From assembly GCA_035583355.1 (NCBI GenBank), contig DATEZQ010000011.1, positions 19,648 through 83,647 of the forward strand: DNA of 64,000 nt, given 5' to 3'. Below the pieces are notes generated by a model. The model had not been told where the DNA came from. It searched no databases and was given only the letters and a program-made list of their open reading frames with translations. Shown piece by piece: positions 23,370 through 55,895 of the stretch. The stretch comes from Minisyncoccota bacterium (GTDB lineage Bacteria > Patescibacteriota > Minisyncoccia > Phycocordibacterales > UBA6899). A program made the translations under genes and the position numbers. Within the stretch, counting starts at the first letter, position 1. Each line of letters starts with the position of its first letter.

Positions 23370-23609
23370 TTAGTTGTCCACAGGTTTATCAGCAGGTTGT
23401 TCACATCTGTAGTATAATTACATGTAGGAGGTAATCCTCCGCCAGCTGGTGAAAAAGCCATCTGGGGCGCATAAGTTTGCGGGTTTTCCACTTTCCATAG
23501 CGTCGTCGAAAAACGCTACAGCACTTATGTATTTACGCTTGTAATTACATTTTTGCACCCACGCTTATTCGTCTAAGCGGTGTCCCATAACACTGCTTGT
23601 ATAGTTCTT
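23370..23609 (+). promoter_or_regulatory. Conserved promoter plus long 5' leader of surface-protein gene B
   Basis: Same ordered conserved blocks as the leader of gene A, see 21781-22010. The two proteins' N-termini and C-termini are also conserved. Confidence 0.5.
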
Positions 23610-31434: not shown

Positions 31435-31531
31435 TGTGTTCACATGCAAAATACCACTACTATAAACATGACGTACAGGAAAGTGGAGAGTATGCTGTAT
31501 ATAGAGCAGTTCATTGTATAGGGAGGCCAAT

Positions 31532-40004: not shown

Positions 40005-40031
40005 CTACATTTCATATGATATAATATCTTC

Positions 40032-41510: not shown

Positions 41511-41540
41511 GAAAACCGCTCCGGCGGTTTCTTTTTATTA
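41511..41540 (+). terminator. Rho-independent terminator
   Basis: gaaaaccgc-tccg-gcggtttctttttatt. Confidence 0.65.
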
Positions 41541-42230: not shown

Positions 42231-42284
42231 GGCACGCTACGCGTGCCTTTTTGTTGCAACAATAAAACCGCTTTCGCGGTTTTA
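42231..42284. terminator. Pair of terminator hairpins between convergent genes
   Basis: ggcacgc-tacgc-gtgccttttt and aaaaccgc-tttc-gcggtttt. Confidence 0.5.
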
Positions 42285-43265
42285 TTTCTTTGAAGATGCA
42301 TCGGGGGTGAACGTGATCGAGAACGAAGTTTGTTCGTCTGTTGTTGTTGCAACAAGTTCTACTCCAAGAAGATCAGCAAGTGCGCGTGCGACATGTGGTC
42401 CGAGTGATGAGCTCGTCATTTCTCCGGTTGTCGGATTCTTGCTTACTCGCTCAAAAATGTCTTTGCGCATGTGCTCAGGCACTGGTGGTGCATTGTCAGC
42501 AATAATAATACGTGCCATTACTGCTTCTCCAGTGTTAAGAGTGAATGCGCGTAGGCTGATTGCATCTGAGGCACCACGTGTACGCTCGAGTGAGTAGGTG
42601 TAGAGTGACTGCAAGATATCAGCGAGGATGATGTGATCAGTGCTGATAATGATTGGCTCAGGGGGTGGGACGTACACAACTTGTGTTCCATGCGCCTTAG
42701 TGCGGCGTGCGGTGATTGTGAGTAGATTGTTGATGACCGCATTGATATCAGTTTGTGCGCGAGAGATGACAATCTCTTTGCGTTCAATACGCGCAAGGAG
42801 GGTCAGGTTGCGCACGACATCAAGGACATGGTCATTGCGATCTCGTATACGCATCAACGTTTGTTGCTCGAGCTTGCCAAGCAAGTCAAGAGAGGGTTCA
42901 AGTGTGCGAATGCCCCATTTGATCGCTGTGCTTGCCTCGGCGATATCTCTTGATGCGATATGGGTGTACTCGTTGCGTAATTCCTCCATTTCGTGCTGAT
43001 GCTCACGGCCCTCCTCGATGCGTTCAATGTTTCGCTGTAGACGATTGATAATAAGGAAGAAAAGGAGGAGTAATGTTGCAGCAAGGCTTATCTCTACAAC
43101 GAGAGCAAGATACGCATCATGCATGCGGTCAGTGAATCGGTGGACAATAAGGATGATCGCGACAGTGAGCGCGCCCAAAAATACACTCGCAAATGATGGA
43201 CAGCGATAGAAGGGAATATTCAAGCGTTTACAGGACGAAAAAGCAGAAAGCTTAGAGGACTTCAT
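42282..43265 (-). CDS. Membrane sensor histidine kinase
   Basis: Two N-terminal TM segments. H-box region (LARIERKEI...). HATPase_c motifs (ARIIIADNAPPVPEHMRKDIFERV; GLGPHVARALADLLGVELVA). Confidence 0.7.
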   Translation of the reverse strand: MKSSKLSAFSSCKRLNIPFYRCPSFASVFLGALTVAIILIVHRFTDRMHDAYLALVVEISLAATLLLLFFLIINRLQRNIERIEEGREHQHEMEELRNEYTHIASRDIAEASTAIKWGIRTLEPSLDLLGKLEQQTLMRIRDRNDHVLDVVRNLTLLARIERKEIVISRAQTDINAVINNLLTITARRTKAHGTQVVYVPPPEPIIISTDHIILADILQSLYTYSLERTRGASDAISLRAFTLNTGEAVMARIIIADNAPPVPEHMRKDIFERVSKNPTTGEMTSSSLGPHVARALADLLGVELVATTTDEQTSFSITFTPDASSKK

Positions 43266-43368
43266 TGGATATATTATACGTCTTCATATGCCCTCGGGCA
43301 AGTGGAAGAACAATTGGTTAGTTACTTCATGCTGGTACTGTAAAGGGAAGCCTTGGTACAATGTCACT

Positions 43369-44697
43369 ATGGCAAAACCGATCGTATATATCGATCATGT
43401 TGAGATCACTTACAACCTCGGTCAAGAGAACGAGTTCAAGGCGAATAAAGGAACGACGCTCGAGGTGTTTGATCAAGAGTACATTATTTTATTTGGTCCC
43501 TCAGGATGTGGAAAGTCGACGCTGCTCTACTCTATTTTTGGCGTGCTCGCTCCGAGCGCGGGAAAGATGTATGTGAATGGTGAATCGATATACGACTACG
43601 CTCCAATGGACATGGTGTACTTCCAGCGCAAGACGATGGGAATCATGTACCAACAGTTTAATCTTATTCCATCAATTACTGTGCTCGATAATGTCGCACT
43701 CCCGTTGATCTTTGATGGTGTTGGTCCGCGCGAACGTGAAATCCGAGCAATGGAATTGTGTAAGCGTTTTACTGTAGATAAGGTTGTAGACAAGTTGCCG
43801 ACTCACCTTTCGGGAGGTCAGCAGCAGCGTGTTTCTGCTGCACGTTCCCTAGTGAATGATCCGCAGATTCTTATCGCCGATGAGCCGGTTGGAAATCTCG
43901 ACTCAGTGACCGCAGCAGCAGTCATGGCTACGCTCGATGAGATCAACCAACGCGACAAGAAGACAATTTTCCTTGTTACGCACGATGCAAAGCTGCTTCC
44001 TCGCGCACATCGCGTGGTCTATCTTGATGATGGAAGGGTGCTCAGGGTGGTGCCTAATCCCGAGAAGGAACAGATTGTGAAACTTGAGGCGGGATCCACA
44101 ATCATAACGGAGATTGAGCAGGTGGCACGCATTTATCCTTATGATAGCCCAAGGGAGTTGCAGGCGAAGAGTTTGATCAACTTTCTTACCGAAGAGCTTT
44201 CATTCGATCAGATATTGAAGTTACAGAAATTGACGGAGCAGGTTATTGAGGGTCGTTTGGATTATCCACAGTACATGCAAATCTTGATGCGCAGCGAGCA
44301 TGATGGAGGAATCGGTATTCCTGTTGCGCGCGCAGGCATTATGGTTGATCGACTAAAGCTCATCATTGAGCATGCACATGACGTCGAGCGCTATCGTCGA
44401 GCAACATCAAAAGATGGTTCGGAGACATATGTACGCAATACTGAATACGTCAATCGTATCGCTGAGTTTCTTGCCACACAGGCTGCACTCGCGCTCGATG
44501 ATAAGGCGAAATTGATGTTTGAGGATATCATCAAGCAGCGTATAGGAGGATTTACGCGTAAGGAGGATTTCCTCGCACAAATTCAGATGAAAGTAGAAGA
44601 TGGCGGTGTCGGAATGCATGCGAAGCAAGCATTTGACGTTACTCGATTGATAGAGAAATTGATTGCACTCGGTATTCAGCGTACTGCTCACCATTAA
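43369..44697 (+). CDS. ABC transporter ATP-binding protein (MacB/FtsE-like) with ~240-aa C-terminal extension
   Basis: Walker A GPSGCGKSTL, signature LSGGQQQRVSAARSL, Walker B ILIADEPVGNLD. ATG at 43369 (MAKPIVYIDHVEITY). The C-terminal half has no recognisable domain. Confidence 0.8.
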   Translation: MAKPIVYIDHVEITYNLGQENEFKANKGTTLEVFDQEYIILFGPSGCGKSTLLYSIFGVLAPSAGKMYVNGESIYDYAPMDMVYFQRKTMGIMYQQFNLIPSITVLDNVALPLIFDGVGPREREIRAMELCKRFTVDKVVDKLPTHLSGGQQQRVSAARSLVNDPQILIADEPVGNLDSVTAAAVMATLDEINQRDKKTIFLVTHDAKLLPRAHRVVYLDDGRVLRVVPNPEKEQIVKLEAGSTIITEIEQVARIYPYDSPRELQAKSLINFLTEELSFDQILKLQKLTEQVIEGRLDYPQYMQILMRSEHDGGIGIPVARAGIMVDRLKLIIEHAHDVERYRRATSKDGSETYVRNTEYVNRIAEFLATQAALALDDKAKLMFEDIIKQRIGGFTRKEDFLAQIQMKVEDGGVGMHAKQAFDVTRLIEKLIALGIQRTAHH

Positions 44698-44708
44698 AAT
44701 ACATACTT

Positions 44709-45917
44709 ATGAGATTACATGATATCGGAAAACTTTCGACGCGTATGTTCAAGACGAACCCTGCGCGTACATGGCTGACCATCGCGGGTATGGGCATCGG
44801 TACGGGGGCAGTCGTGACACTCGTTGCGCTTGGTTTTGGTATGCAGAATATCATTCTTGAGCAGATCGTCTTTGGTGAGACATTGCTCTCGCTCTCTGTG
44901 TCTGCGCCGCTGACGAGAGGTGTTCCGCTCAATGATGCGGCACTTGCAAGCTTCCGCTCCATGCCACACGTCAAAGATGTTGCAGGAATGGCGCAATTCC
45001 CAACACTCATTTCAATGAAGGGACTTACGGGAAATGCATTCGTCCAAGGTGTTGATCCTGCATACTATCGTTATACGGGAGCAAGTGCTGTTGCAGGAGA
45101 ATTGCATACTGATAAGAACAAGAACGCGACGAGTGACGGCGTAGTGCTTACGAAAGCATTGCTCAAGCTATTTGAGATAAAGGAGCCGAAGGATGCAATT
45201 GGTCAAATTGTGACGTTCCGTGTACTTGTGCCTGTTGATGAGACAGGTGATATGCAGGAGGTACCTATCGAGCGTAACTATCGTGTCGTTGGCGTGTCTA
45301 ATGACGATGCGTTCATATCAGCATTTATGCAGCTTACTGAGCTCCGCAACTATGTGCAGATTGCACAATATGAAAAGGCTCAGGTACGCGTAGTATCGAG
45401 CGAGTTTCTTCCAGCAACCACCGCGCTTGTTATTGCAAAAGGATTTATGGTGACCGCACTCAGCAAGACCGTCGATCAAGCAAACAAGATCTTTAGTGGT
45501 ATCCAGGTCGTCCTTGCGGTCTTTGGTAGTATCGCGCTTGCGGTTTCTGCGATTGGTATGTTCAATACGATGACCGTTACATTGCTTGAGCGCACAAAAG
45601 AGATTGGTATCATGCGTACGCTTGGAGCTTCTGCTCAAGACATTAAGATTCTCTTCCTGTCTGAATCAGTCATCGTGGGCTTCCTTGGGGGTATCATGGG
45701 AATTGTCTTCGGACTAGTGATTGGAGGGACACTGAATGGGCTCGTTAATCTTGCGGCAGCAAGTTTCGGTGGGAAATCGATGTCACTATTTTCTTTTCCA
45801 ATCCCATTCCTTGTATTCATTGCGACATTCTCAGCATTGGTGGGATTCATGACAGGAGTCTTCCCAGCAGTGCGTGCATCGAAGCTCTCTCCGCTTGATG
45901 CTATGAGGTACGGATAA
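44709..45917 (+). CDS. ABC transporter permease, FtsX/MacB family
   Basis: N-terminal TM, a large extracytoplasmic domain, and a C-terminal FtsX 3-TM bundle (IGIMRTLGASAQDIKILFLSESVIVGFLGGIMGIV). Confidence 0.7.
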   Translation: MRLHDIGKLSTRMFKTNPARTWLTIAGMGIGTGAVVTLVALGFGMQNIILEQIVFGETLLSLSVSAPLTRGVPLNDAALASFRSMPHVKDVAGMAQFPTLISMKGLTGNAFVQGVDPAYYRYTGASAVAGELHTDKNKNATSDGVVLTKALLKLFEIKEPKDAIGQIVTFRVLVPVDETGDMQEVPIERNYRVVGVSNDDAFISAFMQLTELRNYVQIAQYEKAQVRVVSSEFLPATTALVIAKGFMVTALSKTVDQANKIFSGIQVVLAVFGSIALAVSAIGMFNTMTVTLLERTKEIGIMRTLGASAQDIKILFLSESVIVGFLGGIMGIVFGLVIGGTLNGLVNLAAASFGGKSMSLFSFPIPFLVFIATFSALVGFMTGVFPAVRASKLSPLDAMRYG

Positions 45918-46259: not shown

Positions 46260-48158
46260 ATGGACGGGAAATTATTTCATTGGGGGACAGCAGGTAAGAT
46301 TACGGTAGCAACCGGAATTTTTGCTTTGCTCACACTTATCGCGGTGTCGACCGTTGGTGTATTTAGTATGCAAGCTTCAGCGGGTGGCACTGGTGCAGCA
46401 ACCTCAACAGTGAAGGTGCTCAACACTCCTCCTCGTTTTAATGCAGCTCCTCGCGAAGTTGTTATTTCAGCAACGACAACACCAACGCTTAACGGCTCAG
46501 TTGTTGTCTGGTCAGCAGATGCATATGACAGCTCAAGCAATAACATTTATTTGCTCATCTGTAGGACAAATGGAGCTCCAACTGCAACTACCTCTGCACA
46601 GCCTGTTTGTGCTGGCGGCGCAGGCAATAACCTTGCAGTCACAAGCGGTACTCCTCCAGCGCCAGTCTATCCAGCAACTGCAATAGTGTATGCGACTTCA
46701 AGTCCAATTACAGATAATGTAAATGAGACGATACAATGGTATGCATTCGTTTGCGATGATGTCGTAGGCTTGCCTAAGTGCTCAAAGGTAACTGATCCAT
46801 TGATTCAGGGTGCTCTCCCAAATCCTGAGGCCTCACCACTTGTTATCAATCATCCTCATACATTTAGCTTAATAACAAATAACGGACCAAGAGATCCAGG
46901 TCAGGCAATTACCTTCACTGCTTCGTCAACTGAGGTTACGCATCAGGACACCATCAATGGCCCTGACCTTGCAACGCTCTTTCTCTGTAAGGCACCTGAC
47001 TTCACCGGAAGTGATTGTGGGCCAGGAGGTAAATGGGCTTCATCGACCGTAGCCGTACAGACTAATCCGACTGCAGGGTGGACATTTACTATTCCAATGG
47101 TAAATGGTGCGACGACAACCTATCCATATATTCTCGACAGTCGCCAGCAGCAGGCAATAGGTGCAGCGCAGGGTTCCTCGACGACCTTTACGGTCAATAA
47201 TGTTGCGCCAACAATCGTTCCTGGTACTATCGCGCTTATCGATCAATTCGCAAGTACATCGCTCAAGCTCGTCGTTGAGAAGGGTGAGACACCAAACTTC
47301 AAGCTCTCATTCCAGGTTCAGGATAATAACTCCTGCAAGACCGCAGCGGGTGGCAATCAAGCATCTAGCACAGCGATTACGGTCTACCGTAGTGGTTATG
47401 CAGATGCGTCATGTAATGGGCTCGCAAATGGCCAGCACAACTACAACAGCTGCTATTCAAGCGCCGATGCAAGTGCAACATGGAATGTAACTTGTGCACC
47501 TGATCCAACATATATGTCAGACACTTGTGCAGGAACTGGTGACACAACAGTGGCTTGGTCTTGTTCTTTCCCACTATGGTACACAACGGATCCTACAGAC
47601 TTTGGTTCACCATGGTCAGGAGAGCAGATGAAGGTAAATATCATTCCTATGGATAGCTCAGGAGCTACAACCTCAAACTTGAGATTGACTGGTTCTGAGA
47701 TGAATATTCTTTCTGCGCTCGGTCTCACTGCAAATACCTTTAGTTTCGGTGGTTGGGAGCCTGGTCAAGGAAATACGAATCTCGGTGTTGACGATTTAGG
47801 CGCAACGACTTCGTTGCTCCAAATTCAAGCAACGGGTAACGCATCCCTTGATACGAATATTTCGGGTACAGACATGTGTGTAGGCTATCCAGCATGTTCA
47901 GGATTGCCTGGTGACACGATTCCTGCGGGTCAGGAGCGTTATGCGACGAGCACCGTGCTTTATGCAAGTGGTATTACGCTCGCAACAACAACACCAAAAT
48001 TCTTTGATTTCAATATTCTTAAGTCAACTTCAACCTCAACGCCAAGTATGGGTACACTCTACTGGGGTATAACCGTGCCTGCAGCAATTACCGTTTCGGG
48101 TGACTATAAGGGTCAAAATGCAATTGATGCAGTGGTGAATGCCTCTGCCATCTGGTAA
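46260..48158 (+). CDS. Large secreted Thr/Ser/Gly/Ala-rich surface protein
   Basis: N-terminal signal-anchor ITVATGIFALLTLIAVSTVGVFSMQASA. 632 aa, low in charged residues, several Cys pairs. No recognised domain. Confidence 0.5.
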   Translation: MDGKLFHWGTAGKITVATGIFALLTLIAVSTVGVFSMQASAGGTGAATSTVKVLNTPPRFNAAPREVVISATTTPTLNGSVVVWSADAYDSSSNNIYLLICRTNGAPTATTSAQPVCAGGAGNNLAVTSGTPPAPVYPATAIVYATSSPITDNVNETIQWYAFVCDDVVGLPKCSKVTDPLIQGALPNPEASPLVINHPHTFSLITNNGPRDPGQAITFTASSTEVTHQDTINGPDLATLFLCKAPDFTGSDCGPGGKWASSTVAVQTNPTAGWTFTIPMVNGATTTYPYILDSRQQQAIGAAQGSSTTFTVNNVAPTIVPGTIALIDQFASTSLKLVVEKGETPNFKLSFQVQDNNSCKTAAGGNQASSTAITVYRSGYADASCNGLANGQHNYNSCYSSADASATWNVTCAPDPTYMSDTCAGTGDTTVAWSCSFPLWYTTDPTDFGSPWSGEQMKVNIIPMDSSGATTSNLRLTGSEMNILSALGLTANTFSFGGWEPGQGNTNLGVDDLGATTSLLQIQATGNASLDTNISGTDMCVGYPACSGLPGDTIPAGQERYATSTVLYASGITLATTTPKFFDFNILKSTSTSTPSMGTLYWGITVPAAITVSGDYKGQNAIDAVVNASAIW

Positions 48159-48294: not shown

Positions 48295-49386
48295 ATGCAA
48301 CGCCGAGCAATCTTTTTTATTGCGGGAGCTTTGTTATCTTGGCTGATGCAGACGAATGTCGCGTTAGCTGGTTTTGGTATTACACCTCCATATGTCCATA
48401 ATGAAACACTTCGTCCGGGAAGTGATTTCACACAGGAGATCATCGTCGTTCGCTCGGATCCAACTGAGGATCTCAATGCAGAGCTTACGGTGAATACACC
48501 TGGTTTTGAATCTTGGATCTCAAGCGATCGCGGCATGAAGTTCTTGCTGCCAAAGGGTGAGAGTCAGGTACGTCTGAAGATCGCGGTACATGTTCCTGAT
48601 AATGCAAAGTTGGGTGACTATCGTGGAAGCATTCGCATACGCACTGCAGGAACCGGAGAACCTGGGTCAGGTATCTCTCTGGTGCTTGGTGCGCAGATTG
48701 ATGTCTTGCTCAAAGTCCGCGATCAGATTTTCGACTTTGAAGTGAGGCGTGTTGAAATCTTCGATGCCGAGGAGGGTCACAAAGTCTTGTGGTTGAACTA
48801 TCCAGGTAAGGTGACCTTCGCGATGCAGCTTGAAAACACGGGTAATATTCCCGCTGCTCCATATAAGATTCGTTTTGAAATCTACGATATTACCGGAAGG
48901 CAACTCTTGGAGACTACAGAGAATACCAATAATATTAAAGAAATCCTCCCGTTTGCTTCTCAGCGCGTCGAAGCCTACCTTCCTACATTCCTTCCTACGG
49001 GGTCTTACCGTGTGAAGTACAATGTTATGAAGGAAAAGGATTCTTCTGCACAGGTGGGGGAACTGACGCTTTCGGTGTTTCCAAATGGAACCATTGCAGG
49101 GTATAAGCCATATGGCTTTGAAGGACTTTCTATTGCAGATAAATTGACCCTCATTCTTCCTGTTGTTACAGTCAGTCTTGCAATTATTGCACCAGTACTT
49201 GGACGTAAGAAGCGCCGCGCACGCCGCGCACGTGAGGAAGCTAAGGCAGGAGCTGCGCCAGTGCGGGGTGGTATGGGTGTCACCTCATCAACAGCGCGTA
49301 TGCGCTCACAGGCCCCTGCAGCACCCGCACGCCGTGTTGCAGCACCTTCCTCTGGTGGCGATGTGGTGAATCTCAAAAAACGATAA
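48295..49386 (+). CDS. Cell-surface protein, signal peptide plus C-terminal TM anchor (paralog 3 of 3)
   Basis: Signal peptide ALAGFGITP. WISSDRGMKFLLPKGESQVRLKIAVHVPDNAKLGDYRGSIRIR aligns with the W..IP...VPF...P.A.PG.Y blocks of 19425 and 20621. C-terminal TM then KKRRARRAREE. Confidence 0.55.
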   Translation: MQRRAIFFIAGALLSWLMQTNVALAGFGITPPYVHNETLRPGSDFTQEIIVVRSDPTEDLNAELTVNTPGFESWISSDRGMKFLLPKGESQVRLKIAVHVPDNAKLGDYRGSIRIRTAGTGEPGSGISLVLGAQIDVLLKVRDQIFDFEVRRVEIFDAEEGHKVLWLNYPGKVTFAMQLENTGNIPAAPYKIRFEIYDITGRQLLETTENTNNIKEILPFASQRVEAYLPTFLPTGSYRVKYNVMKEKDSSAQVGELTLSVFPNGTIAGYKPYGFEGLSIADKLTLILPVVTVSLAIIAPVLGRKKRRARRAREEAKAGAAPVRGGMGVTSSTARMRSQAPAAPARRVAAPSSGGDVVNLKKR

Positions 49387-49388
49387 TC

Positions 49389-50582
49389 ATGAACGGATGG
49401 AATACTAAAATGCGTTATGCTCCTTTCTCGGTACGTAATATGGAGCGTATCGCATTTTTAGTTGCCGGACTTGTGTTTGTGTTAATAACAAATACGCATA
49501 ACGTAGCAGCGGAAGTCGGCAGTGTAGTTGCAACATCCACGGTAGCGATTTCGATTTGTAATAATGGAATTGTCGATAGTGGTGAGACCTGTGATTTCGG
49601 GCTCGGGCTAAATGATGGAGAATATTCTTCGACCACTGCGGGTCGTCACTGTGCAACAAACTGTCGTTCTTGGGGCCCATATTGCGGTGACGGTATTCTT
49701 AAGGCATTTTATGGTGAAGAGTGTGTCCCTGATGGAAATAATTTTTGCACAGATCAGTGTAAGCAGAAGGAGCCACCCGTGTCTTCAACTACTCCTCCCG
49801 CTCCGCCTCCTACTCCGTCGGGAAACGGTGGTGGGTCCGGTGCAGTGCCTATGCGCGCACAGACACAAGTTGTGTTTGCAGGGAAGGCATACCCCAATAC
49901 TCGTGTGCAGATTCTTAAAGATGGAGTGTTGCTCGGCATCGCTCAGGCTGATGGTAATGCGGACTTTTCCTATAACGTAACGAATGCAACTCCTGGCCCA
50001 ACGACGTTTGGCTTCTGGGCTGAGGACAACAAGAAGATACGATCAATTACATACACGACGACATTTCAGGTGACTCAAAATGCAGTGACAAACGTTGGTA
50101 ATGTATTTCTCCCTCCAACGATTCGCGCACTCATCGCGAAGGTATCTCCGGGTACGAATATAATTCTTGACGGCACTACTGCTCCAAGAGCACGTGTACA
50201 ACTACTCCTAGATAAATCAAGTGCACCGGTACATACTGCAAATTCAAAAGATAATGGTGAGTGGGATGCAAGTTTGCCAACAGGGGGTATGTCTCCCGAA
50301 AACTATCATCAAATATTGCCTTTCCTTGAGCTGATTGGCGCAAGTGGTACTGTTCCGCAAAAGAGTGGCAATGGTACTTCACTCAATGTGTTTGTCGGTA
50401 ATAGTAACGTGTCAGACCGTACAGGCAATGGTGACATCAATGGTGATGGTAAGGTGAACATTCTCGATTTCTCTATGCTCTTGTTTCGTTTTGGTGGTGC
50501 CGATCCAGCGGGTGATCTCAATCATGATGGTAAAGTAAATATCGCCGATCTTTCTATTATGCTCTTTAATTGGACTGCATAA
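49389..50582 (+). CDS. Secreted protein with Myxococcus-type Cys-rich repeats and a C-terminal dockerin module
   Basis: Signal peptide. CNNGIVDSGETCDFG and CGDGILKAFYGEECVPDGNNFC fit the CGDG...GEECDDGN repeat. C-terminus GNGDINGDGKVNILDFSMLLF...GDLNHDGKVNIADLSIMLFNW is a duplicated dockerin Ca-binding segment. Confidence 0.65.
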   Translation: MNGWNTKMRYAPFSVRNMERIAFLVAGLVFVLITNTHNVAAEVGSVVATSTVAISICNNGIVDSGETCDFGLGLNDGEYSSTTAGRHCATNCRSWGPYCGDGILKAFYGEECVPDGNNFCTDQCKQKEPPVSSTTPPAPPPTPSGNGGGSGAVPMRAQTQVVFAGKAYPNTRVQILKDGVLLGIAQADGNADFSYNVTNATPGPTTFGFWAEDNKKIRSITYTTTFQVTQNAVTNVGNVFLPPTIRALIAKVSPGTNIILDGTTAPRARVQLLLDKSSAPVHTANSKDNGEWDASLPTGGMSPENYHQILPFLELIGASGTVPQKSGNGTSLNVFVGNSNVSDRTGNGDINGDGKVNILDFSMLLFRFGGADPAGDLNHDGKVNIADLSIMLFNWTA

Positions 50583-50585
50583 ACT

Positions 50586-51581
50586 ATGAAAAAAATAATC
50601 CTAACCCTACTTCTTGGTTTTCTTCCTGTGGTCGCAAGTGCAGCTACGCTGCGCTTTGACCCAGTGGTCCGTCCTTCCGCACCAGGGGATGTGTTCATTG
50701 CGACCATGCGCGTTGATGTGAATGGAGGGGAGTGTGTGAATGCCGCCACTGTTGGTGTCGCATATCCTACACATTTGCTCACACTCAATGCAGTTTCTCG
50801 AGGTGAGTCAATCTTCTCACTTTGGCTCGAGCAAAAAATTGACAAAGAAAAAGGCGAAGTACATTTTGTTGCAGGAATTCCTGGTGGGTATTGCGGTCGC
50901 GCAGTAGGTGATCCTGGACAATCAAACGTTGTTGCAAAAATTGTATTTCAATACAAGGGGCAATCCTCTGCTGATGTCGCCGCGATTACTTTTCTCCCCG
51001 AGACTGAAGTAGATCTCAATGACGGTCGCGGAACCCGTGCTGAGCTTGCAACAATACCTTTATCGGTGCAATATGCATCGGAATCTACATCACATAATGA
51101 ATGGCTCAGTGTTGTTCGTGAGGATACGTTTCCACCAGAGGAATTCATTCCTCAGATTTACAGAGATAATGAGGCTCAAAAGTCCCCATTCTATCTGATG
51201 TTTGATGCAACAGATAAGCAGAGTGGTATTGAGCATTATGAAGTGACTGAAGAGGATCCAAATAGTTTTGGATTCCGTTTGGGAAGTCGAGTAAAGGCTA
51301 AGCCAGCCCCCGTAACAAGCCCATATCTCTTGCAGGACCAGACATTAAGTAGTCGTATTGTAGTTCGCGCTTATGATCATGCAGGGAATATGCAGGAGTC
51401 TATCGTTCCACCAAAGAATTATCGTTCCCTCCTTGATTCATTTGCGCTAAATGACTACCTTATACCATTCCTACTTGTGATTGCATGTGGCGTTGCCGTG
51501 TTCATGAGTTTTTATCACTACCGAAAGAGTAGTGATGAAGCTCCTACAGATGATGAACATGACGATCCCCAGGTCCCATAG
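50586..51581 (+). CDS. Cohesin-domain protein with C-terminal TM anchor
   Basis: Signal peptide. Cohesin-like beta-sandwich pattern (ATLRFDPVVRPSAPGDVFIATMRVDV...VGVAYPTHLLTL...GEVHFVAGIPGG...VAKIVFQYKG). C-terminal TM YLIPFLLVIACGVAVFMSFYHY. Confidence 0.6.
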   Translation: MKKIILTLLLGFLPVVASAATLRFDPVVRPSAPGDVFIATMRVDVNGGECVNAATVGVAYPTHLLTLNAVSRGESIFSLWLEQKIDKEKGEVHFVAGIPGGYCGRAVGDPGQSNVVAKIVFQYKGQSSADVAAITFLPETEVDLNDGRGTRAELATIPLSVQYASESTSHNEWLSVVREDTFPPEEFIPQIYRDNEAQKSPFYLMFDATDKQSGIEHYEVTEEDPNSFGFRLGSRVKAKPAPVTSPYLLQDQTLSSRIVVRAYDHAGNMQESIVPPKNYRSLLDSFALNDYLIPFLLVIACGVAVFMSFYHYRKSSDEAPTDDEHDDPQVP

Positions 51582-51666
51582 AACCACTAATTATAGTGGT
51601 TTTTTAATTTGCAAATTGGGGGAACTATTCACACTTGTTCTGTGCATGTCGTGCTATAATATATGC

Positions 51667-53319
51667 ATGTACACACGTGCACGGAAAACTGTAATTGCAG
51701 CGCTCTTTTCGGTTGCGCTTTTTCCGTGTGTTGTCTTCGCCTCGAGTACGCTCTCGCTTTCTCCTGCTTCAGGGAGTTATCCTGTTGACGAGGTAATTCC
51801 AGTGCGTGTTTTGGTGCAGTCACCTGAGAAGCTTGCTGCGGTGGAGGCGACGCTTGAGTTTGATCCAAAATTGCTCGGCCTAGAAATTATTTCAACATCT
51901 CAGGACGTATCATGGGTAGTTACACCGAATGTTGATGGTGGTGTATTGCGCTACTCAGGGATGGTCAAGAAAGATGCACCAACTACACTAGAGCTGATGA
52001 CACTCAACGTGCATGCATTGCGCCCGGGAAAGCCAGAGCTTAGATTCACTTCAGGCGCCTCTACCGTTGCCGCTGATGGTTCTGGAGGGAATACGCTTGG
52101 GCATATCACTCAAGCAAGTTTTGATATTGCGCCAAAAGAAGGTTTTGCTCCCGGAGTAACTTCTGCAGATGGGGCAGGTGAAGTTCTTGGTGCAAGCGAT
52201 GGGTCTACTCTTACCGTGACTGCAAAGGAGATTACTGATGAATCCTTATGGTATCCACTACATGATATCACTATGTCTTGGACGTTGCCCCGTGAGGTTA
52301 AAGACGTGCGCATTGGACTTTCGCGAAAGGCAGAAGATACAGGATATAAGAGTGTTACGTCGGGTACGACAACGCGCTTCGTGACGGATCTTGAAGAAGG
52401 TGAATGGTATTTCCATCTGACACCTGAAGGTGGCGAACTTAAAGATTCTGTACACTTCCGAATTGCGATTGATCATTCTGCTCCAATACTGAGCACGACG
52501 ACTGAAGTCGTGCGCGATGACAGTCATGATCCAAATATTGCGTATAGTGTAAGTGCAAGTGACGTGGTCTCGGGAGTCGCATACTACGAGTTCACGATCG
52601 ATGCAGGCCGCGGAGAGCGCTGGACTGATGATGGGTCAGGGATATATCGTTTCCGCTCACCTGTATTCGGAGCACACGACCTTACTATTGCCGCTGTTGA
52701 TAAGGCGGGAAATCGTAGTGAGTCAAAGGTGCGTTATGAGGTAACACCACTTGATAAGCCAGTTGTGCGTGCAAAGAGTGATAAGTTCGCAGAAGCTAGT
52801 CCCGTTGTCGCAGAGCTACAGGGTCTTCCTGGAGCGAGCGCACATGTGGTTTTCGAGGGTGGTGCTGTACATCATGAAGATACAATAGCGCTTGATTCCT
52901 CTGGAAAGGGTACCTATACACTCAAGGAGAGTATTCTTCCTGGCAACTATATGCTTTCGGTTGTACAGACGCTTGAGAATGGTGCTTCATCAGATGTTCC
53001 TGTGCGTGTTGACATTGAAATCACGACTTCAGTGATTGGTTACCTGGGAAGGAATCCTGCATTATCAATCGCTCTCATTCCACTCTTGCTTATTGCGCTT
53101 GTTATTGGAGGCTGGCGCATAGGGAAGATATTCCTTGCTTATCAGCAAAAGGGCTATGGAGGAAATGTTCCGCAACTCGCTCTTCCTGCTCCGCGCGCTG
53201 ATCGAGATGTACAACGATCGAATGTGGTTCGTCCCGTGCAGACTGCTCCACTTGAGTTACGCAGAGTGGTTCGCGTGCAAGCGCCGGGTGCAGTAATTGA
53301 TTTGCGAAGGAGAGAATAA
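51667..53319 (+). CDS. Cohesin-domain protein with Ig-like middle domains and C-terminal TM anchor
   Basis: In-frame ATG at 51667 preceded by TATAAT. Signal peptide KTVIAALFSVALFPCVVFASS. Cohesin-like N-domain (LSLSPASGSYPVDEVIPVRVLVQSPEKLAAVEATLEFDPKLLGLEII). C-terminal TM LSIALIPLLLIALVIGGW. The ORF-track start at 51532 overlaps the previous gene. Confidence 0.6.
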   Translation: MYTRARKTVIAALFSVALFPCVVFASSTLSLSPASGSYPVDEVIPVRVLVQSPEKLAAVEATLEFDPKLLGLEIISTSQDVSWVVTPNVDGGVLRYSGMVKKDAPTTLELMTLNVHALRPGKPELRFTSGASTVAADGSGGNTLGHITQASFDIAPKEGFAPGVTSADGAGEVLGASDGSTLTVTAKEITDESLWYPLHDITMSWTLPREVKDVRIGLSRKAEDTGYKSVTSGTTTRFVTDLEEGEWYFHLTPEGGELKDSVHFRIAIDHSAPILSTTTEVVRDDSHDPNIAYSVSASDVVSGVAYYEFTIDAGRGERWTDDGSGIYRFRSPVFGAHDLTIAAVDKAGNRSESKVRYEVTPLDKPVVRAKSDKFAEASPVVAELQGLPGASAHVVFEGGAVHHEDTIALDSSGKGTYTLKESILPGNYMLSVVQTLENGASSDVPVRVDIEITTSVIGYLGRNPALSIALIPLLLIALVIGGWRIGKIFLAYQQKGYGGNVPQLALPAPRADRDVQRSNVVRPVQTAPLELRRVVRVQAPGAVIDLRRRE

Positions 53320-53347
53320 AAACACTTCACTAATGTGAAGTGTTTTT
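53317..53347. terminator. Bidirectional rho-independent terminator
   Basis: aaaaacacttcac-taat-gtgaagtgttttt. Confidence 0.65.
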
Positions 53348-53348
53348 C

Positions 53349-54287
53349 TTAATTTTCTGATTTATGAACCTCTGCTTCAATTTCTCGCGCATCGACTACC
53401 TCTTCCTTGGGATGTGCTTTGTCGAATGCCATGTAGTTCTGATATATGACATACATATAAGCGAGCATCATTGGGGAAAGAACAATCTTTGCAATAATTG
53501 CTCCTAGGCCGGGAAGAATCGATGAGGCAACGACCGATACGCAATAGGCGAGCACTCCTCCTGAGAGAATGCGCCAGAAAGTCTTCCACCAGCGACCGTG
53601 CACAAGTGTGAGGCTCGAGAGGAGCGCAGCTTTGCCTCGTGACCCATGCACAACATAAGCAAGTGATGCAAATGAGAGATAGACCGAGAAGATCAGTCCG
53701 GGGATGAAGAATACGATAAATCCTGCCAAAGTGATAAGAGTTGTAAGTATACCAATCAGGAAGAATCCAGGAAGTCGCTCCCACGCGCGCTTAAATGCAT
53801 GACGCACGGTCATTTCTCCTTCATGCGCTACGATCGTATAGAGCGCAAGCGTTCCCCAGAGTGAAACGATGATAAGCGAGAGGAGGCCGATCGTCGAGTG
53901 AAGTATGAGAATCGGGAGGACCGAACTACTTGTGAAATCATTGAAGGTGAAACGCAGTACGAATACGTCGTAGATGATTGGAGCCACGAATAACGCAATC
54001 GTGAGCAACACTGCAAGCATCGTTGCGAATGAGCAAAGCATGTATGCCTTTGCGTTTTTCATGAAGAGATTCCAAGCCGCAGGAACGAGCTCTCCAACAG
54101 TGAGTAACTTTGTGCTCAGATCGAGCTCACTCGAAGTGGGTCTTGGCGGATTTACTTCTTCTTCGAATGATTTCGCAATCAAGTCTTCGCGCCAGTGCTT
54201 CTCGCGCAATGCTATTTTTATGTTCTCATCAGACACACCGCTGAGTCGCTGGGTGGTAACAAAGTTTTTGAGTTGATCAAATGACAT
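53349..54287 (-). CDS. Polytopic membrane protein, unknown function
   Basis: 312 aa. Cytoplasmic N-terminal ~60 aa then at least 6 TM helices. No family recognised. Confidence 0.45.
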   Translation of the reverse strand: MSFDQLKNFVTTQRLSGVSDENIKIALREKHWREDLIAKSFEEEVNPPRPTSSELDLSTKLLTVGELVPAAWNLFMKNAKAYMLCSFATMLAVLLTIALFVAPIIYDVFVLRFTFNDFTSSSVLPILILHSTIGLLSLIIVSLWGTLALYTIVAHEGEMTVRHAFKRAWERLPGFFLIGILTTLITLAGFIVFFIPGLIFSVYLSFASLAYVVHGSRGKAALLSSLTLVHGRWWKTFWRILSGGVLAYCVSVVASSILPGLGAIIAKIVLSPMMLAYMYVIYQNYMAFDKAHPKEEVVDAREIEAEVHKSEN

Positions 54288-54322
54288 ATGATTATGAAGA
54301 TGAATTGATAAGTGGTCAGAGT

Positions 54323-55003
54323 TTACTTAAGCTGATCATAGTAATCGAGAATCATGGAAACGTCTTTGAAATCGATGTTTTTGTCACCATTGATATCATA
54401 GATCGTATTATACCGCTTGCCCATTGCCATGACGACTTGTGCGACATCGCGGGCAGTGACATGACGATCATTATCTATGTCAGGGCTCGCGAAACCTTTT
54501 TGTCTTGGGAAGATGCGTATTCCGCCAGTGATTTCAAGTACGTTATCTCCTCTACCGTTATTCGCGAGGAGTGTTGCGTCGTCGATGGTGAGTTGGATGG
54601 GGATAGCTTTGTTCGCGTAGAAAATCGCTCGCAAAATATTTCCTTCTTGTTTGCCGCTTACCAATGAGGGTTTAATGATGCCTCCACTCCATGTGATCGC
54701 ACCATTACTATTACTCCATTCGGGAGTAGCTCCCCAAAGGTCAATTACACTCCTCGATGTATCAATACGATCGACGGTGAGGTATTGCGCGGGGAAGTGG
54801 ATGGTTCCATCAGTTGCATTGACTGCAACATTACTCCGTAAGTTTAATTCGATGGAGAAAGGACTTCCGATCTCAGGGAAATAGGAGACCGGTTTCAGGA
54901 AAAGTACGTTGCCGGGCGGAACCTCTCCTCGCGAGATAAGCAAAAAAAGTATCGGTACCGATAGGATAGCCTTTCTATGATGCTTTTTTATGACGCTAAA
55001 CAT
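54323..55003 (-). CDS. Small secreted protein carrying both a cohesin-like domain and a dockerin module
   Basis: Signal peptide. Cohesin-like region (GNVLFLKPVSYFPEIGSPFSIELNL...DGTIHFPAQYLTV). C-terminal dockerin repeats DIDNDRHVTARDVAQVV and YDINGDKNIDFKDVSMILDYY. Confidence 0.6.
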   Translation of the reverse strand: MFSVIKKHHRKAILSVPILFLLISRGEVPPGNVLFLKPVSYFPEIGSPFSIELNLRSNVAVNATDGTIHFPAQYLTVDRIDTSRSVIDLWGATPEWSNSNGAITWSGGIIKPSLVSGKQEGNILRAIFYANKAIPIQLTIDDATLLANNGRGDNVLEITGGIRIFPRQKGFASPDIDNDRHVTARDVAQVVMAMGKRYNTIYDINGDKNIDFKDVSMILDYYDQLK

Positions 55004-55026: not shown

Positions 55027-55410
55027 CTACTTCTTGAGGTGAGTTTTGATGCGCGCGATAATATCCTCGAGGCCCCAGTCACTCTTGATTAAAAATTCGG
55101 TTGCTCCGAATCCTGCGATAGTGGCGATAGTGGTTGCATCCGCAGAGTTGGTAACTGCCATTACGAAAACGTTCTTACCCCATTCGTCTGCTTGGCGCAT
55201 TTTGCCGAGCATTGTGATGCCATCCATGCGCGGCATGAATATATCGAGTAGGATGAGTGCGGGGTGATGGAGTTGTGCGAGGCTCAACCCCTTTTCTCCA
55301 TCCTCTGCAGCAAGTACATCAAAACCTTCTTCTGTAAGCCGGTCGGTGAGTACTTGGCGTAACGCATGATCGTCTTCAACGACGAGTATTTTTGGTTTTC
55401 GTGTTTCCAT
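55027..55410 (-). CDS. Single-domain response regulator (CheY-like receiver)
   Basis: 127 aa. Acidic pocket VVEDD. Phospho-acceptor in LILLDIFMPRMDG. Conserved T and K positions. Confidence 0.75.
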   Translation of the reverse strand: METRKPKILVVEDDHALRQVLTDRLTEEGFDVLAAEDGEKGLSLAQLHHPALILLDIFMPRMDGITMLGKMRQADEWGKNVFVMAVTNSADATTIATIAGFGATEFLIKSDWGLEDIIARIKTHLKK

Positions 55411-55419
55411 GTTGGTAAG

Positions 55420-55797
55420 TTATTTTTTGAGGGATCCTTTGATCTTTTCAGCCACTGCATCGATCGGTGTCTCTGCTTTGTTGATATAGTCAGTGGCCCC
55501 GATTGTTCTCAGTTGGGTGATAAGTTCAGGGTCTCGTTGATTTGAGAGTACATAGCAGGGTACTCGTGCTCCCCAAGGACCACTTTCGCGGAGTCTTTTA
55601 ATAAAAGTCGTGCCGTCCATTGGGTACATGACAATGTCAGTAGTAATTACATCGGGCTTTTCTTTTTGTGCGATGAGGAGCGCTTCCTCTCCTGTTCCTG
55701 CTTCAAAAACGGTGAATCCAATCAAGGAGAATTTCTGTGCAAGCATACCGCGAATCGGACCTTCGTCCTCAAGAATGAGTATTTTAGGAGACTCCAT
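55420..55797 (-). CDS. Single-domain response regulator (CheY-like receiver)
   Basis: 125 aa. ILILEDE. Phospho-acceptor VITTDIVMYPMDG. Confidence 0.75.
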   Translation of the reverse strand: MESPKILILEDEGPIRGMLAQKFSLIGFTVFEAGTGEEALLIAQKEKPDVITTDIVMYPMDGTTFIKRLRESGPWGARVPCYVLSNQRDPELITQLRTIGATDYINKAETPIDAVAEKIKGSLKK

Positions 55798-55895
55798 AAT
55801 TGCTTATATTATAGCACATTTTGCTGAATGGTGGCTTTGTGGATGTCTTTGGGCTTTACTCTATTTATGCTATGCTATGCAAATACAAGCATAAA

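What the first reader, a model, noticed from the sequence alone, without database searches (positions are those of the whole stretch)
48295..55003. Cohesin/dockerin surface-assembly cluster in a small genome
Four adjacent genes encode the two complementary module types of cellulosome-style protein-protein assembly. One secreted protein (49389-50582) has Myxococcus-type Cys-rich repeats and a C-terminal duplicated dockerin (DINGDGKVNILD ... DLNHDGKVNIADL). Two membrane-anchored proteins carry cohesin-like N-domains and C-terminal TM helices (50586-51581 and 51667-53319). A small secreted protein on the opposite strand has both a cohesin-like domain and a dockerin (54323-55003). Upstream sit a 632-aa secreted Thr-rich protein and the third member of the C-terminally anchored paralog family (48295). 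Downstream are two stand-alone receiver domains. This looks like a self-contained, cell-anchored scaffold/adaptor/cargo system. It is probably not cellulolytic, since no glycoside hydrolase is nearby. It may instead mediate adhesion or attachment to a host or partner cell. The member with both a cohesin and a dockerin would act as an adaptor.
Basis: partly seen in the sequence, partly recalled or inferred. Interest (0 to 1): 0.7.

Follow-up and report, generated by a model that had tools for sequence, protein, structure and literature searches.

The report
Conserved cohesin–dockerin surface locus in Parcubacteria
The cluster really does encode three cohesin and two dockerin modules on membrane-anchored and secreted proteins, with no cellulose-degrading enzymes, and it is the end of a nine-gene locus, including a MacB/Lol-type ABC transporter, kept in the same order across many ultra-small Parcubacteria genomes.

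Summary

Two corrections. B (48295) is not a paralog of D/E. The system is also not self-contained. In 47 of 54 species-representative Parcubacteria/Paceibacteria genomes with enough flank, D is preceded in the same order by ABC ATPase, MacB/FtsX permease, A, B and C, usually with an FN3 protein first. E follows D in 51 of 60 and G in 49 of 60. The receiver domains and histidine kinase occur only in the nearest relatives. No glycoside hydrolase or CBM lies nearby.

Best reading: a non-cellulosomal, membrane-anchored cohesin–dockerin envelope complex. C-dockerin on D-cohesin is the minimal pair, since five genomes keep only these two. It is co-encoded with a type VII ABC transporter.

Binding, partner wiring and biological role (host attachment or envelope architecture) are inferred, not shown. 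This is a new variant of a known kind. Interest is moderate.

The parts
40032..41504 (+). FN3 protein (490 aa): N-terminal hydrophobic segment, four FN3/Pur_ac_phosph_N-type domains and a helical segment. It is the first gene of the conserved locus.
   Evidence: Pfam Pur_ac_phosph_N scores 79.6 bits and fn3 scores 59.2 bits. An ortholog lies upstream of the ABC genes in 44 of the 47 fully syntenic loci. A terminator-like hairpin sits at 41513-41530.
42282..43265 (-). Histidine-kinase-like protein (327 aa) with two TM helices separated by about 13 residues. It is a lineage-specific neighbour, not a core part.
   Evidence: HATPase_c scores 27.0 bits against a cut-off of 26.4. There are weak NCBIfam HK hits. 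TM helices lie at 23-41 and 55-73. Among the loci it is found only in L001, L008, L010 and L011.
43288..44697 (+). ABC ATPase (469 aa) of the FtsE/LolD/MacB type, with a C-terminal extension of about 220 aa that has no family match.
   Evidence: ABC_tran scores 97.9 bits. The best NCBIfam matches are FtsE at 167 bits, LolD at 167 bits and MacB at 164 bits, all below equivalog cut-offs. Its position is conserved.
44709..45917 (+). Type VII ABC permease (402 aa): four TM helices plus a MacB-like extracytoplasmic core domain.
   Evidence: MacB_PCD scores 67.6 bits and FtsX scores 59.4 bits, both above cut-off. LolCE scores 86 bits and MacB 80 bits in NCBIfam. Its position is conserved.
46260..48158 (+). 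Protein A (632 aa): secreted, 13.4% Thr, 14 Cys. It belongs to an orphan family.
   Evidence: Neither the window copy nor any of 27 orthologs has a Pfam or NCBIfam hit, and the profile has no PDB hit. Many Cys columns are invariant. Its position is conserved.
48295..49386 (+). Protein B (363 aa): signal peptide, invariant mature N-terminus GFGITPPYV, an ectodomain with only weak beta-sandwich-type family hits, a C-terminal TM helix and a basic tail ending VVNLKKR. It is not a cohesin protein.
   Evidence: Alignments are. Only weak Ig-like hits were found. hhalign against the D family gives probability 8%. The TM helix lies at 284-302.
49389..50582 (+). Protein C (397 aa): signal peptide, Cys-rich DUF4215 repeats, Pro-rich linker, a region with a weak Big_6 (bacterial Ig) match, and a C-terminal dockerin.
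   Evidence: Pfam results are. A 2-3 nt spacing to B and D suggests translational coupling.
50433..50579 (+). Dockerin module of C (residues 349-397). It has two near-identical Ca-loop plus helix segments joined by a linker of about 7 residues.
   Evidence: Dockerin_1 scores 34.2 bits. D349, N351, D353, D360, D376, N378, D380 and D387 are invariant in orthologs. All 70 orthologs keep the module (64 match a strict two-loop pattern; the other 6 match one loop and show a similar second segment) and end ...DFSI(L/M)LFxWTG.
50586..51581 (+). Protein D (331 aa): signal peptide, N-terminal cohesin-like domain (about residues 19-165, nt 50640-51080), a domain with the Big_13/OmpL47-like motif DKQSGI..Y/AGN, a TM helix at 291-309 and an acidic tail.
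   Evidence: Supporting results are. C50 and C103 are invariant.
51580..51603 (+). Terminator-like hairpin (10-bp stem followed by a T run) directly after the D stop codon. A TATAAT box follows, just upstream of the E start.
51667..53319 (+). Protein E (550 aa): signal peptide, cohesin domain (residues 27-155, nt 51745-52131), a disordered linker, three Ig-like domains (183-453), a TM helix (464-495) and a disordered basic tail ending VIDLRRRE.
53318..53347 (.). Palindromic 13-bp-stem hairpin between the convergent genes E and F. It is probably a bidirectional terminator.
53349..54287 (-). Protein F (312 aa): a multi-pass membrane protein with weak YciC/UPF0259 similarity. It is a lineage-specific neighbour.
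   Evidence: Among the loci it is found only in L001 and L008.
54323..55003 (-). Protein G (226 aa): conserved basic/hydrophobic N-terminus, cohesin domain (residues 33-164, nt 54512-54907) and dockerin (residues 175-226, nt 54326-54481).
   Evidence: The AF2 model has pLDDT 85 and pTM 0.77. The Foldseek top 50 are all cohesins. The profile hits PDB dockerins 2y3n_B and 2b59_B at E 0.0024. D175, D179, D186, D203 and D214 are invariant. An ortholog follows E in 49 of 60 loci, on the + strand in 27 and the - strand in 22.
55027..55797 (-). Two stand-alone receiver-domain proteins (127 and 125 aa). They lie upstream of G and F on the minus strand. They are lineage-specific neighbours.
   Evidence: Response_reg scores 78.9 and 66.9 bits. 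Both receivers lie beside the cluster only in L001 and L008; a few other loci (L011, L013, L015, L027, L080) carry a single receiver-like ORF.

Best explanation
This is a non-cellulosomal cohesin–dockerin envelope complex of a Parcubacteria/Paceibacteria (CPR) bacterium. It is encoded by the distal half of a class-wide conserved locus.

**Shown**
- D and E are type-I membrane proteins. Each holds one cohesin module at the tip of one (D) or three (E) Ig-like domains above the membrane.
- C is a secreted protein with Cys-rich repeats and a region with a weak bacterial-Ig (Big_6) match, ending in a symmetric dockerin.
- G is a small exported protein made of one cohesin and one dockerin.
- These five modules are the only cohesins and dockerins in the 64-kb window and within 10 kb either side of D in about 80 related loci.
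- They are always co-encoded with proteins A and B and with a MacB/LolCDE/FtsEX-type (type VII) ABC transporter and an FN3 protein.

**Inferred**
- Ca-dependent dockerin–cohesin binding tethers C, and through G possibly further copies of C or G, to the membrane anchors D and E. This would build a fixed, low-copy-number surface assembly rather than a many-cohesin scaffoldin.
- C-dockerin on D-cohesin is the primary pair, because a clade that lacks E and G keeps exactly these two modules intact.
- E and G form the second tier.
- The ABC transporter most likely acts on this assembly from the membrane. It might insert, extract or mechanically activate it, as type VII ABC systems do with extracytoplasmic partners.

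**Unresolved**
The biological output is either anchoring a surface layer or appendage, or contact with a host or partner cell.
For: - **Module identity.** C dockerin is above the Pfam cut-off. G and E have cohesin folds. D is homologous to both, and its family hits Pfam Cohesin and PDB cohesins. The G dockerin has invariant Ca ligands, two helices in the model, and Dockerin_1 hits in 21 of 27 orthologs.
- **Topology.**
- **Closed module set.** My own dockerin and cohesin HMMs hit only the C/G and D/E/G families among 4450 ORFs of the window and 87 loci.
- **Co-conservation.** 47 of 54 loci have ABC-FtsX-A-B-C in order directly upstream of D. E is present in 51 of 60 and G in 49 of 60. Some misses are ORF-overlap artefacts.
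- **Purifying selection on dockerins.** All 70 C orthologs retain the module (64 match a strict two-loop pattern, the other 6 match one loop with a similar second segment). 64 of 65 G orthologs match at least one loop, and the remaining one shows degenerate DxDG-type loops.
- **Minimal pair.** L043, L047, L074, L076 and L082 carry only the C dockerin (97-102 bits) and the D cohesin within 10 kb either side.
- **Gene spacing.** B, C and D are 2-3 nt apart.
- **ABC class.** MacB_PCD and FtsX are above cut-off. The best NCBIfam matches are LolCE/MacB for the permease and FtsE/LolD/MacB for the ATPase.
- **Taxonomic spread.** 252 matching stretches were found in species-representative genomes titled Lloyd-, Kaiser-, Adler-, Campbell-, Nomura- and Azambacteria and Paceibacterota.
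- **Precedent.** Non-cellulosomal cohesin–dockerin pairs in archaea have been shown to bind, as stated in PMC9012536 citing Haimovitz 2008.
Against: - No binding data exist and no complex model could be computed.
- None of the three window cohesins reaches Pfam's gathering score (best 12.9 bits for E). The G dockerin is also below it (17.8 bits).
- The C-D pairing rests on what is probably a single loss event in one clade. A partner elsewhere in those genomes cannot be excluded.
- A mutual-information test of dockerin against cohesin columns over 50 species ranked Cdoc-Gcoh highest (0.44), above Cdoc-Dcoh (0.33), and is not decisive.
- The link to the ABC transporter is by synteny only. In the window a 342-nt gap separates FtsX from A, and E appears to have its own promoter, so the locus is probably several transcription units.
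- The roles of A, B and the FN3 protein are unknown.
Confidence: 0.6

Rival explanations
1. This is a host- or partner-cell adhesion apparatus. The cohesin–dockerin assembly displays C, and perhaps A, as adhesins that attach the epibiotic cell to its host.
For: - Relatives are CPR bacteria with genomes of about 1 Mb (for example CP060229.1, 994,774 bp). The cultivated ones are obligate epibionts or parasites (PMC10633639, PMC12281837).
- The E stalk resembles tandem-Ig adhesin extenders such as SiiE, the ice-binding adhesin and GhpA.
- A dockerin-domain envelope protein is essential in a cultivated Saccharibacterium and was proposed to target host glycans (PMC10633639).
Against: - Composition, order and sequence are conserved across class-level divergence. 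Host-specific adhesins usually vary between close relatives.
- No lectin, CBM or known adhesin tip domain was detected in A, B or C.
- The current literature attributes CPR host attachment to type IV pili (PMC12281837).
- This reading is compatible with the best explanation's assembly mechanism. It differs only in the output.
Confidence: 0.3
2. The modules are cohesin-like and dockerin-like only in fold and do not pair with each other. The dockerins would be Ca-binding stabilising or ligand-binding tails, and the beta-sandwiches generic spacer domains of unrelated envelope proteins.
For: - The window cohesins are below Pfam cut-offs.
- Dockerin profiles also pick up EF-hand proteins.
- Many non-cellulosomal dockerins have no known partner (background in PMC9012536).
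Against: - Three cohesins and two dockerins co-occur strictly in one locus over dozens of species, and nowhere else in about 1.5 Mb of flanking sequence examined.
- When E and G are lost, one dockerin and one cohesin remain together.
Confidence: 0.12
3. This is a minimal cellulosome-like system for polysaccharide degradation.
For: Cohesin and dockerin are the hallmark modules of cellulosomes. Top structural matches include cellulosomal cohesins.
Against: - No glycoside hydrolase, CBM, SLH or multi-cohesin scaffoldin was found in C, G, A or B, in any scanned ORF of at least 110 aa from about 31.5 to 64 kb of the window, or in the called genes of six related loci with precomputed Pfam.
- Each protein has a single cohesin.
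Confidence: 0.03
4. The ABC transporter is the centre of the system. The locus would be an export, maturation or mechanotransduction module of the FtsEX or MacB type, for example one controlling envelope remodelling or division. The cohesin–dockerin proteins would be its extracytoplasmic clients or regulators rather than a display scaffold.
For: - The ABC ATPase and MacB/FtsX permease are the most constant members, together with A-D.
- The ATPase's best NCBIfam match is FtsE.
- FtsEX-type systems in monoderms act through extracellular coiled-coil partners (established knowledge). The FN3 protein has a helical segment and always precedes the ABC genes.
Against: - All equivalog scores are far below cut-off: FtsE 167 against 265, and FtsX_Gpos 40 against 225.
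- No hydrolase domain was found in the locus.
- The permease has the larger MacB-type core domain rather than the FtsX ECD.
Confidence: 0.2

Closest known systems
Cell-surface anchoring and adaptor scaffoldins of cellulosomes (e.g. C. thermocellum OlpA/OlpC/SdbA, A. cellulolyticus ScaA/ScaB adaptors)
   Same: - A cell-bound protein presents a cohesin that captures a dockerin-bearing secreted protein.
- One component (G) carries both a cohesin and a dockerin, as adaptor scaffoldins do.
- The structural matches are to exactly these modules, for example 4dh2 Coh-OlpC, 3ul4 Coh-OlpA and 3l8q ScaA.
   Different: - Anchoring is by a C-terminal TM helix, not by SLH domains or sortase.
- Each protein has one cohesin, so there is no multi-cohesin scaffoldin.
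- The dockerin cargo has no enzyme or CBM.
- The locus is linked to a type VII ABC transporter.
- The host is a CPR bacterium of about 1 Mb.
- Sequence identity to cellulosomal cohesins is only 8-19%.
Archaeoglobus fulgidus non-cellulosomal cohesin/dockerin proteins (PDB 2xdh)
   Same: - It occurs in a non-cellulolytic organism.
- The proteins carry single cohesins, including one with cohesin plus dockerin (from my own knowledge of Bayer 1999 and Voronov-Goldman 2011).
- Binding of the archaeal pairs was shown experimentally (cited in PMC9012536).
   Different: It is archaeal and an isolated occurrence. No conserved multi-gene locus, TM-anchored stalk proteins or ABC transporter association has been reported for it.
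Clostridium perfringens toxin-complex cohesin–dockerin pairs (GH33 NanJ cohesin 2vo8; GH84 NagJ 2w1n/2o4e/2ozn)
   Different: There the modules join large glycoside hydrolases to each other. Here no enzymes are involved and the cohesins are membrane-anchored.
ANME archaeal dockerin/cohesin surface proteins (PMC9012536)
   Same: They were proposed to attach functional proteins to the cell's outer layer and to mediate cell-cell interaction in obligately partner-dependent microbes.
   Different: The ANME proteins are numerous and variable between close relatives and include multi-cohesin proteins. The Parcubacteria set is small, fixed and syntenic.
Type VII ABC transporters (MacB, LolCDE, FtsEX)
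   Same: The four-TM FtsX-fold permease has a MacB-type extracytoplasmic core domain and a separate ATPase. These systems do mechanical work on extracytoplasmic partners (established knowledge).
   Different: - It is not an equivalog of any characterised member.
- The ATPase has an uncharacterised C-terminal extension of about 220 aa.
- No membrane-fusion adaptor is present.
- The neighbouring genes are unique.

Membership tests
Cohesin module (Pfam PF00963) | Match to the family profile above the curated gathering score | tested here: not met
   In the window, E scores 12.9 bits against a cut-off of 24.1, and D and G have no hit. At family level, 18 of 53 D homologs (best E 1.9e-7) and 3 of 27 G homologs hit the model at E<=0.01. 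E-like proteins P0168 and P0169 carry precomputed PF00963.
Cohesin module (Pfam PF00963) | Nine-stranded flattened beta-sandwich (jelly-roll) fold superposable on solved cohesins | tested here: met
Cohesin module (Pfam PF00963) | Binds a cognate dockerin | not testable with these tools
   No multimer prediction or experiment was available.
Dockerin module (Pfam PF00404) | Match to the family profile above the gathering score | tested here: met
   C scores 34.2 bits against 22.9. G scores 17.8 bits, below the cut-off, but 21 of 27 G orthologs hit at E<=0.01, best 6.6e-8.
Dockerin module (Pfam PF00404) | Duplicated ~22-residue segment: 12-residue Ca-binding loop (D-x-[DN]-x-[DN]-...-D) followed by a helix | tested here: met
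   C has loops at 349-360 and 376-387. G has loops at 175-186 and 203-214. The ligand positions are invariant in the ortholog alignments. The G model has helices at 184-193 and 212-225.
Cellulosome | Scaffoldin with multiple cohesins | tested here: not met
   D, E and G have one cohesin each. The cohesin HMM hits no other ORF in the window or loci.
Cellulosome | Dockerin-bearing glycoside hydrolases or other CAZymes, and a CBM | tested here: not met
   C and G have no catalytic or CBM domain. Neighbouring ORFs are housekeeping or unknown. The same holds in related loci.
Type VII ABC transporter (MacB/LolCDE/FtsEX superfamily) | FtsX-fold permease with extracytoplasmic MacB-type core domain plus a cognate ABC ATPase | tested here: met
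   MacB_PCD scores 67.6, FtsX 59.4 and ABC_tran 97.9 bits, all above cut-off.
Type VII ABC transporter (MacB/LolCDE/FtsEX superfamily) | Equivalog-level match to a characterised member (FtsE/FtsX, LolCDE, MacB) | tested here: not met
   All NCBIfam scores are far below equivalog cut-offs: FtsE 167 against 265, LolCE 86 against 362, and MacB 164 and 80 against 966.
Myxococcus cysteine-rich repeat (TIGR02232 / Pfam DUF4215) | Profile match in protein C | tested here: inconclusive
   DUF4215 has E 8.8e-6 and 26.4 bits against a cut-off of 27. TIGR02232 was not listed at E<=1. C orthologs carry weak precomputed DUF4215 hits.
Two-component regulatory system dedicated to the cluster | Kinase and receivers conserved with the locus | tested here: not met
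   The domains are present in the window, but they accompany the locus only in the nearest relatives.

The most novel reading that the evidence does not exclude
The nine-gene locus encodes a previously undescribed, class-wide surface organelle of Parcubacteria/Paceibacteria.

- Membrane-anchored cohesin stalks (D, E) would nucleate a cohesin–dockerin chain. The bifunctional G could add head-to-tail (dockerin of one copy into the cohesin of the next) and be capped by C.
- The whole assembly would be mechanically driven or remodelled by a dedicated type VII ABC transporter. That would make it an ATP-coupled, cohesin–dockerin-built host-contact or envelope machine.
- A recurrent C-terminal cytoplasmic motif, (V/I)(V/I)DL(S/K/R)(R/K)(R/K), on B, E and D could be the handle by which a cytoplasmic partner engages the anchors. 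One candidate partner is the unexplained extension of about 220 aa on the ATPase.
Probability: 0.15. Interest if true: 0.8.

Novelty: new variant of a known kind. Interest (0 to 1): 0.55.

Why it matters
How ultra-small CPR bacteria build their envelope and contact their hosts is largely unknown. Outside Saccharibacteria there is almost no genetics.

A small, fixed set of three cohesins and two dockerins offers a rare tractable entry point. It is conserved in order across many Parcubacteria lineages and tied to a mechanotransducing ABC transporter.

The predicted interactions can be tested directly with recombinant modules. The proteins are obvious targets for cryo-ET labelling, metaproteomics and host-binding assays.

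It would also extend the cohesin–dockerin principle from variable, enzyme-displaying cellulosomes to a conserved, enzyme-free core envelope structure.

Tried and rejected
- **Single-sequence phmmer of D, E and G against PDB.** No relevant hits. Profiles were needed.
- **B as a cohesin paralog.** Rejected. Only scattered weak beta-sandwich hits were found, including one WxLIP_HBD hit at E 0.006 in 1 of 29 orthologs. That is too weak to use.
- **Protein A.** No Pfam, NCBIfam or PDB similarity, even with a 27-member profile.
- **AFDB50 fold library.** Not available.
- **Dockerin–cohesin partner assignment by normalised MI with APC over 50 species.** Scores were Cdoc-Gcoh 0.44, Gdoc-Gcoh 0.38, Cdoc-Dcoh 0.33, Gdoc-Dcoh 0.28, Cdoc-Ecoh 0.25 and Gdoc-Ecoh 0.20. 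There are too few sequences and they are phylogenetically confounded, so no conclusion is drawn.
- **Two-component system as part of the system.** Not conserved.
- **Cellulolytic reading.** No GH or CBM found.
- **Rfam scan of the window.** Only one tRNA.
- **Sigma-70 promoter scan.** Not enriched over shuffles (23 against 25.4). Terminator-like sites were modestly enriched (23 against 13.3).
- **Literature.** Searches combining dockerin or cohesin with CPR, Parcubacteria, Patescibacteria or Paceibacteria found no description of this locus. The library lacks most subscription journals, so this is not proof of absence.
- **Existing annotation.** NCBI already names one D homolog 'cohesin domain-containing protein [Minisyncoccia bacterium]' (P0104).

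Full report
**Anatomy**

I label them as follows.

| Label | Coordinates | Strand | Length |
|---|---|---|---|
| A | 46260-48158 | + | 632 aa |
| B | 48295-49386 | + | 363 aa |
| C | 49389-50582 | + | 397 aa |
| D | 50586-51581 | + | 331 aa |
| E | 51667-53319 | + | 550 aa |
| F | 53349-54287 | - | 312 aa |
| G | 54323-55003 | - | 226 aa |
| Receiver 1 | 55027-55410 | - | 127 aa |
| Receiver 2 | 55420-55797 | - | 125 aa |

Hydropathy shows N-terminal signal-like segments in A to E and C-terminal TM helices in B, D and E. B, C and D are separated by 2-3 nt. A hairpin followed by a T run comes straight after D, and a TATAAT box lies just upstream of the E start. A 13-bp palindromic hairpin separates the convergent genes E and F.

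**Dockerins**

- C reaches Pfam Dockerin_1 at 34.2 bits against a cut-off of 22.9 (E 2.9e-8). Its two segments are almost identical, which suggests (but does not show) a symmetric, dual-mode dockerin.
- The C Cys-rich region matches DUF4215 at E 8.8e-6, 0.6 bit below the cut-off. TIGR02232 was not detected.
- G scores 17.8 bits in the window copy. However, 21 of 27 orthologs hit Dockerin_1 (best 6.6e-8). The Ca-ligand positions D175, D179, D186, D203 and D214 are invariant.
- The G family profile hits solved dockerins (2y3n_B and 2b59_B, E 0.0024). The AF2 model has the two expected helices.

**Cohesins**

None of the window proteins reaches Pfam's Cohesin cut-off. E scores 12.9 bits, and D and G have no hit. 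The assignment therefore rests on three other lines of evidence.

1. **Family level.** 18 of 53 D homologs and 3 of 27 G homologs match Cohesin (best 1.9e-7 and 1.2e-5). The D profile hits PDB cohesin 5g5d_A at E 0.0011.
2. **Mutual homology.** hhalign gives D~E at 99.7% (E 4e-25), D~G at 98.6% (E 1e-15) and E~G at 98.8% (E 5e-17).
3. **Fold.**
   - The G model (pLDDT 85) returns only cohesins in the Foldseek top 50.
   - Below the cohesin, E has a disordered linker, three Ig-like domains resembling adhesin stalks, a TM helix and a disordered basic tail.
   - D was not modelled. By sequence it has a cohesin-like N-domain, a domain carrying the Big_13/OmpL47-like motif, and a TM helix.

B is not a paralog of D/E. 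It is a separate, well-conserved family with an invariant mature N-terminus, GFGITPPYV.

**The locus is larger and deeply conserved**

Look-ups of D homologs on long contigs showed the same neighbours each time. These were an FN3 protein, an ABC ATPase, a MacB_PCD/FtsX permease, an unannotated protein of about 600 aa, one of about 350 aa, a DUF4215/dockerin protein, D, and a longer cohesin/Big_13 protein. In four of the five loci a small dockerin protein also lay downstream (within 1 kb of E in L001 and L005, about 5 kb away in L003/L004); in L006 a 228-aa ORF with no precomputed Pfam hit occupied that position and was later identified as a G ortholog.

A scan of species-representative genomes found 252 matching stretches. 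The 80 best loci are titled Lloyd-, Kaiser-, Adler-, Campbell-, Nomura- and Azambacteria, Spechtbacterales and Paceibacterota, that is, the Parcubacteria group of Patescibacteria. A number carry generic or plainly wrong bin labels.

I built HMMs for each family and searched all ORFs of these loci.

- The order FN3-ABC-FtsX-A-B-C-D-E-G recurs almost everywhere.
- By strict counting, 47 of 54 loci with at least 9 kb upstream have ABC-FtsX-A-B-C directly upstream of D. Of these, 44 also have FN3.
- Of 60 loci with at least 4.5 kb downstream, 51 have E and 49 have G. G is on the + strand in 27 and on the - strand in 22.
- Several apparent misses are overlap artefacts of my ORF calling.
- The histidine kinase (42282-43265), F and the two receivers travel with the locus only in the nearest relatives.
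- In the window the ABC genes are 43288-44697 and 44709-45917, and the FN3 gene is 40032-41504.
- The transporter belongs to the type VII (MacB/LolCDE/FtsEX) class but is not an equivalog of any characterised member.

**A closed module set and a natural deletion**

Dockerin and cohesin HMMs built from the families hit only C/G and D/E/G among 4450 ORFs. Dockerins are retained in all 70 C orthologs and essentially all 65 G orthologs.

Five loci (L043, L047, L074, L076 and L082, probably one clade) lack both E and G within 10 kb. They keep a full-scoring C dockerin and the D cohesin. This is the only evolutionary evidence on wiring. It points to C-Doc:D-Coh as the core pair and to E and G as a co-lost second tier. 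An MI-based covariation test was not decisive.

**Mechanism**

Shown:
- module identities
- topologies
- co-conservation
- absence of CAZymes

Inferred:
- D and E hold cohesins away from the membrane.
- C, and G through its dockerin, dock onto them in a Ca-dependent way.
- G's own cohesin offers a further docking site for C or for another G.
- The type VII ABC system and the FN3 protein act on or assemble this structure.

The biological output is open. Host attachment is plausible for an epibiont. However, the fixed composition over class-level divergence contrasts with the variability reported for bacterial and ANME cohesin/dockerin proteins (PMC9012536). That fits a core envelope role at least as well.

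**Comparison and novelty**

Non-cellulosomal cohesin and dockerin modules are known in all domains (Peer 2009, as cited in PMC9012536). They have been shown to bind in Archaeoglobus. NCBI already labels one D homolog as a cohesin domain-containing protein.

In the literature I could search, I found no description of this conserved Parcubacteria locus or of its coupling to a type VII ABC transporter. A dockerin-domain envelope protein is essential in a cultivated Saccharibacterium (PMC10633639), but that is a different class and protein.

I therefore rate this as a new variant of a known kind, of moderate interest and directly testable.

Noticed in passing
window 49360-49386 (B tail) and 53290-53316 (E tail); B orthologs in about 25 loci, E in L001/L008/L010/L031, D in L003/L038: The extreme C-terminus of different membrane-anchored locus proteins carries the same short cytoplasmic motif, (V/I)(V/I)(D/N)L(S/K/R)(R/K)(R/K). 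Examples are B ...GDVVNLKKR and E ...GAVIDLRRRE. It looks like a short linear motif for a cytoplasmic partner. In other lineages E ends instead with a KE(I/V)xD(V/I) motif.
   Followed up: partly
window 40012-40031, 43266-43287, 51647-51666, 55798-55820: TATAAT-like -10 boxes lie within the 20 nt upstream of the start codons of the FN3 gene, the HK and ABC genes (divergent pair), E, receiver 2 and the thioredoxin-like gene. I did not notice an obvious Shine-Dalgarno sequence in those 20 nt. This suggests leaderless or very short-leader mRNAs.
   Followed up: no
window 54935-55003 (- strand), G residues 1-23: The N-terminus of G (consensus IKKHHRKxILTVPILFL; P17 and F20 invariant) is far more conserved than an ordinary signal peptide, and its hydrophobic core is only about 13 residues long. 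It may be a specialised targeting or anchoring signal.
   Followed up: no
window 55821-56318 and 56321-56884 (+): A membrane-anchored thioredoxin-like protein and a DsbB homolog sit directly beside the locus. A has 14 Cys, C has 8 Cys, and D has two invariant Cys (C50, C103). Extracytoplasmic disulfide formation is therefore probably needed for these proteins.
   Followed up: partly
window 44050-44697 (ABC ATPase residues about 255-469): The ABC ATPase carries a C-terminal extension of about 220 residues with no family match. Its length is conserved in orthologs (436-497 aa).
   Followed up: no
window 11910-24785 (+): Six consecutive ORFs (655, 1789, 396, 372, 394 and 401 aa) have no Pfam match at E<=1e-4. 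They lie between gyrB and the SufBD genes and form a second block of unknown, possibly envelope-related, proteins. The 935-aa ORF at 31514-34321 also has no hit.
   Followed up: no
L025, L027, L028, L031, L032, L034, L035, L043, L047, L062, L074, L076, L081, L082 (upstream of the FN3 gene): Many related loci carry an additional A-like paralog immediately upstream of the FN3 gene. The window does not.
   Followed up: no
window 42282-43265 (-): The histidine-kinase-like protein has two TM helices separated by only about 13 residues, a layout typical of intramembrane-sensing kinases. It is divergently adjacent to the ABC transporter genes. It has a HATPase_c match barely above cut-off and no HisKA match.
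   Followed up: partly
G-family profile against 1.84 billion representative proteins: 5833 cluster representatives match at E<=1e-3 and 2732 at E<=1e-10. Besides G-like proteins of about 225-260 aa and D/E-like proteins, there is a class of proteins of 570-900 aa with this cohesin type in the middle, at about residues 290-480.
   Followed up: no
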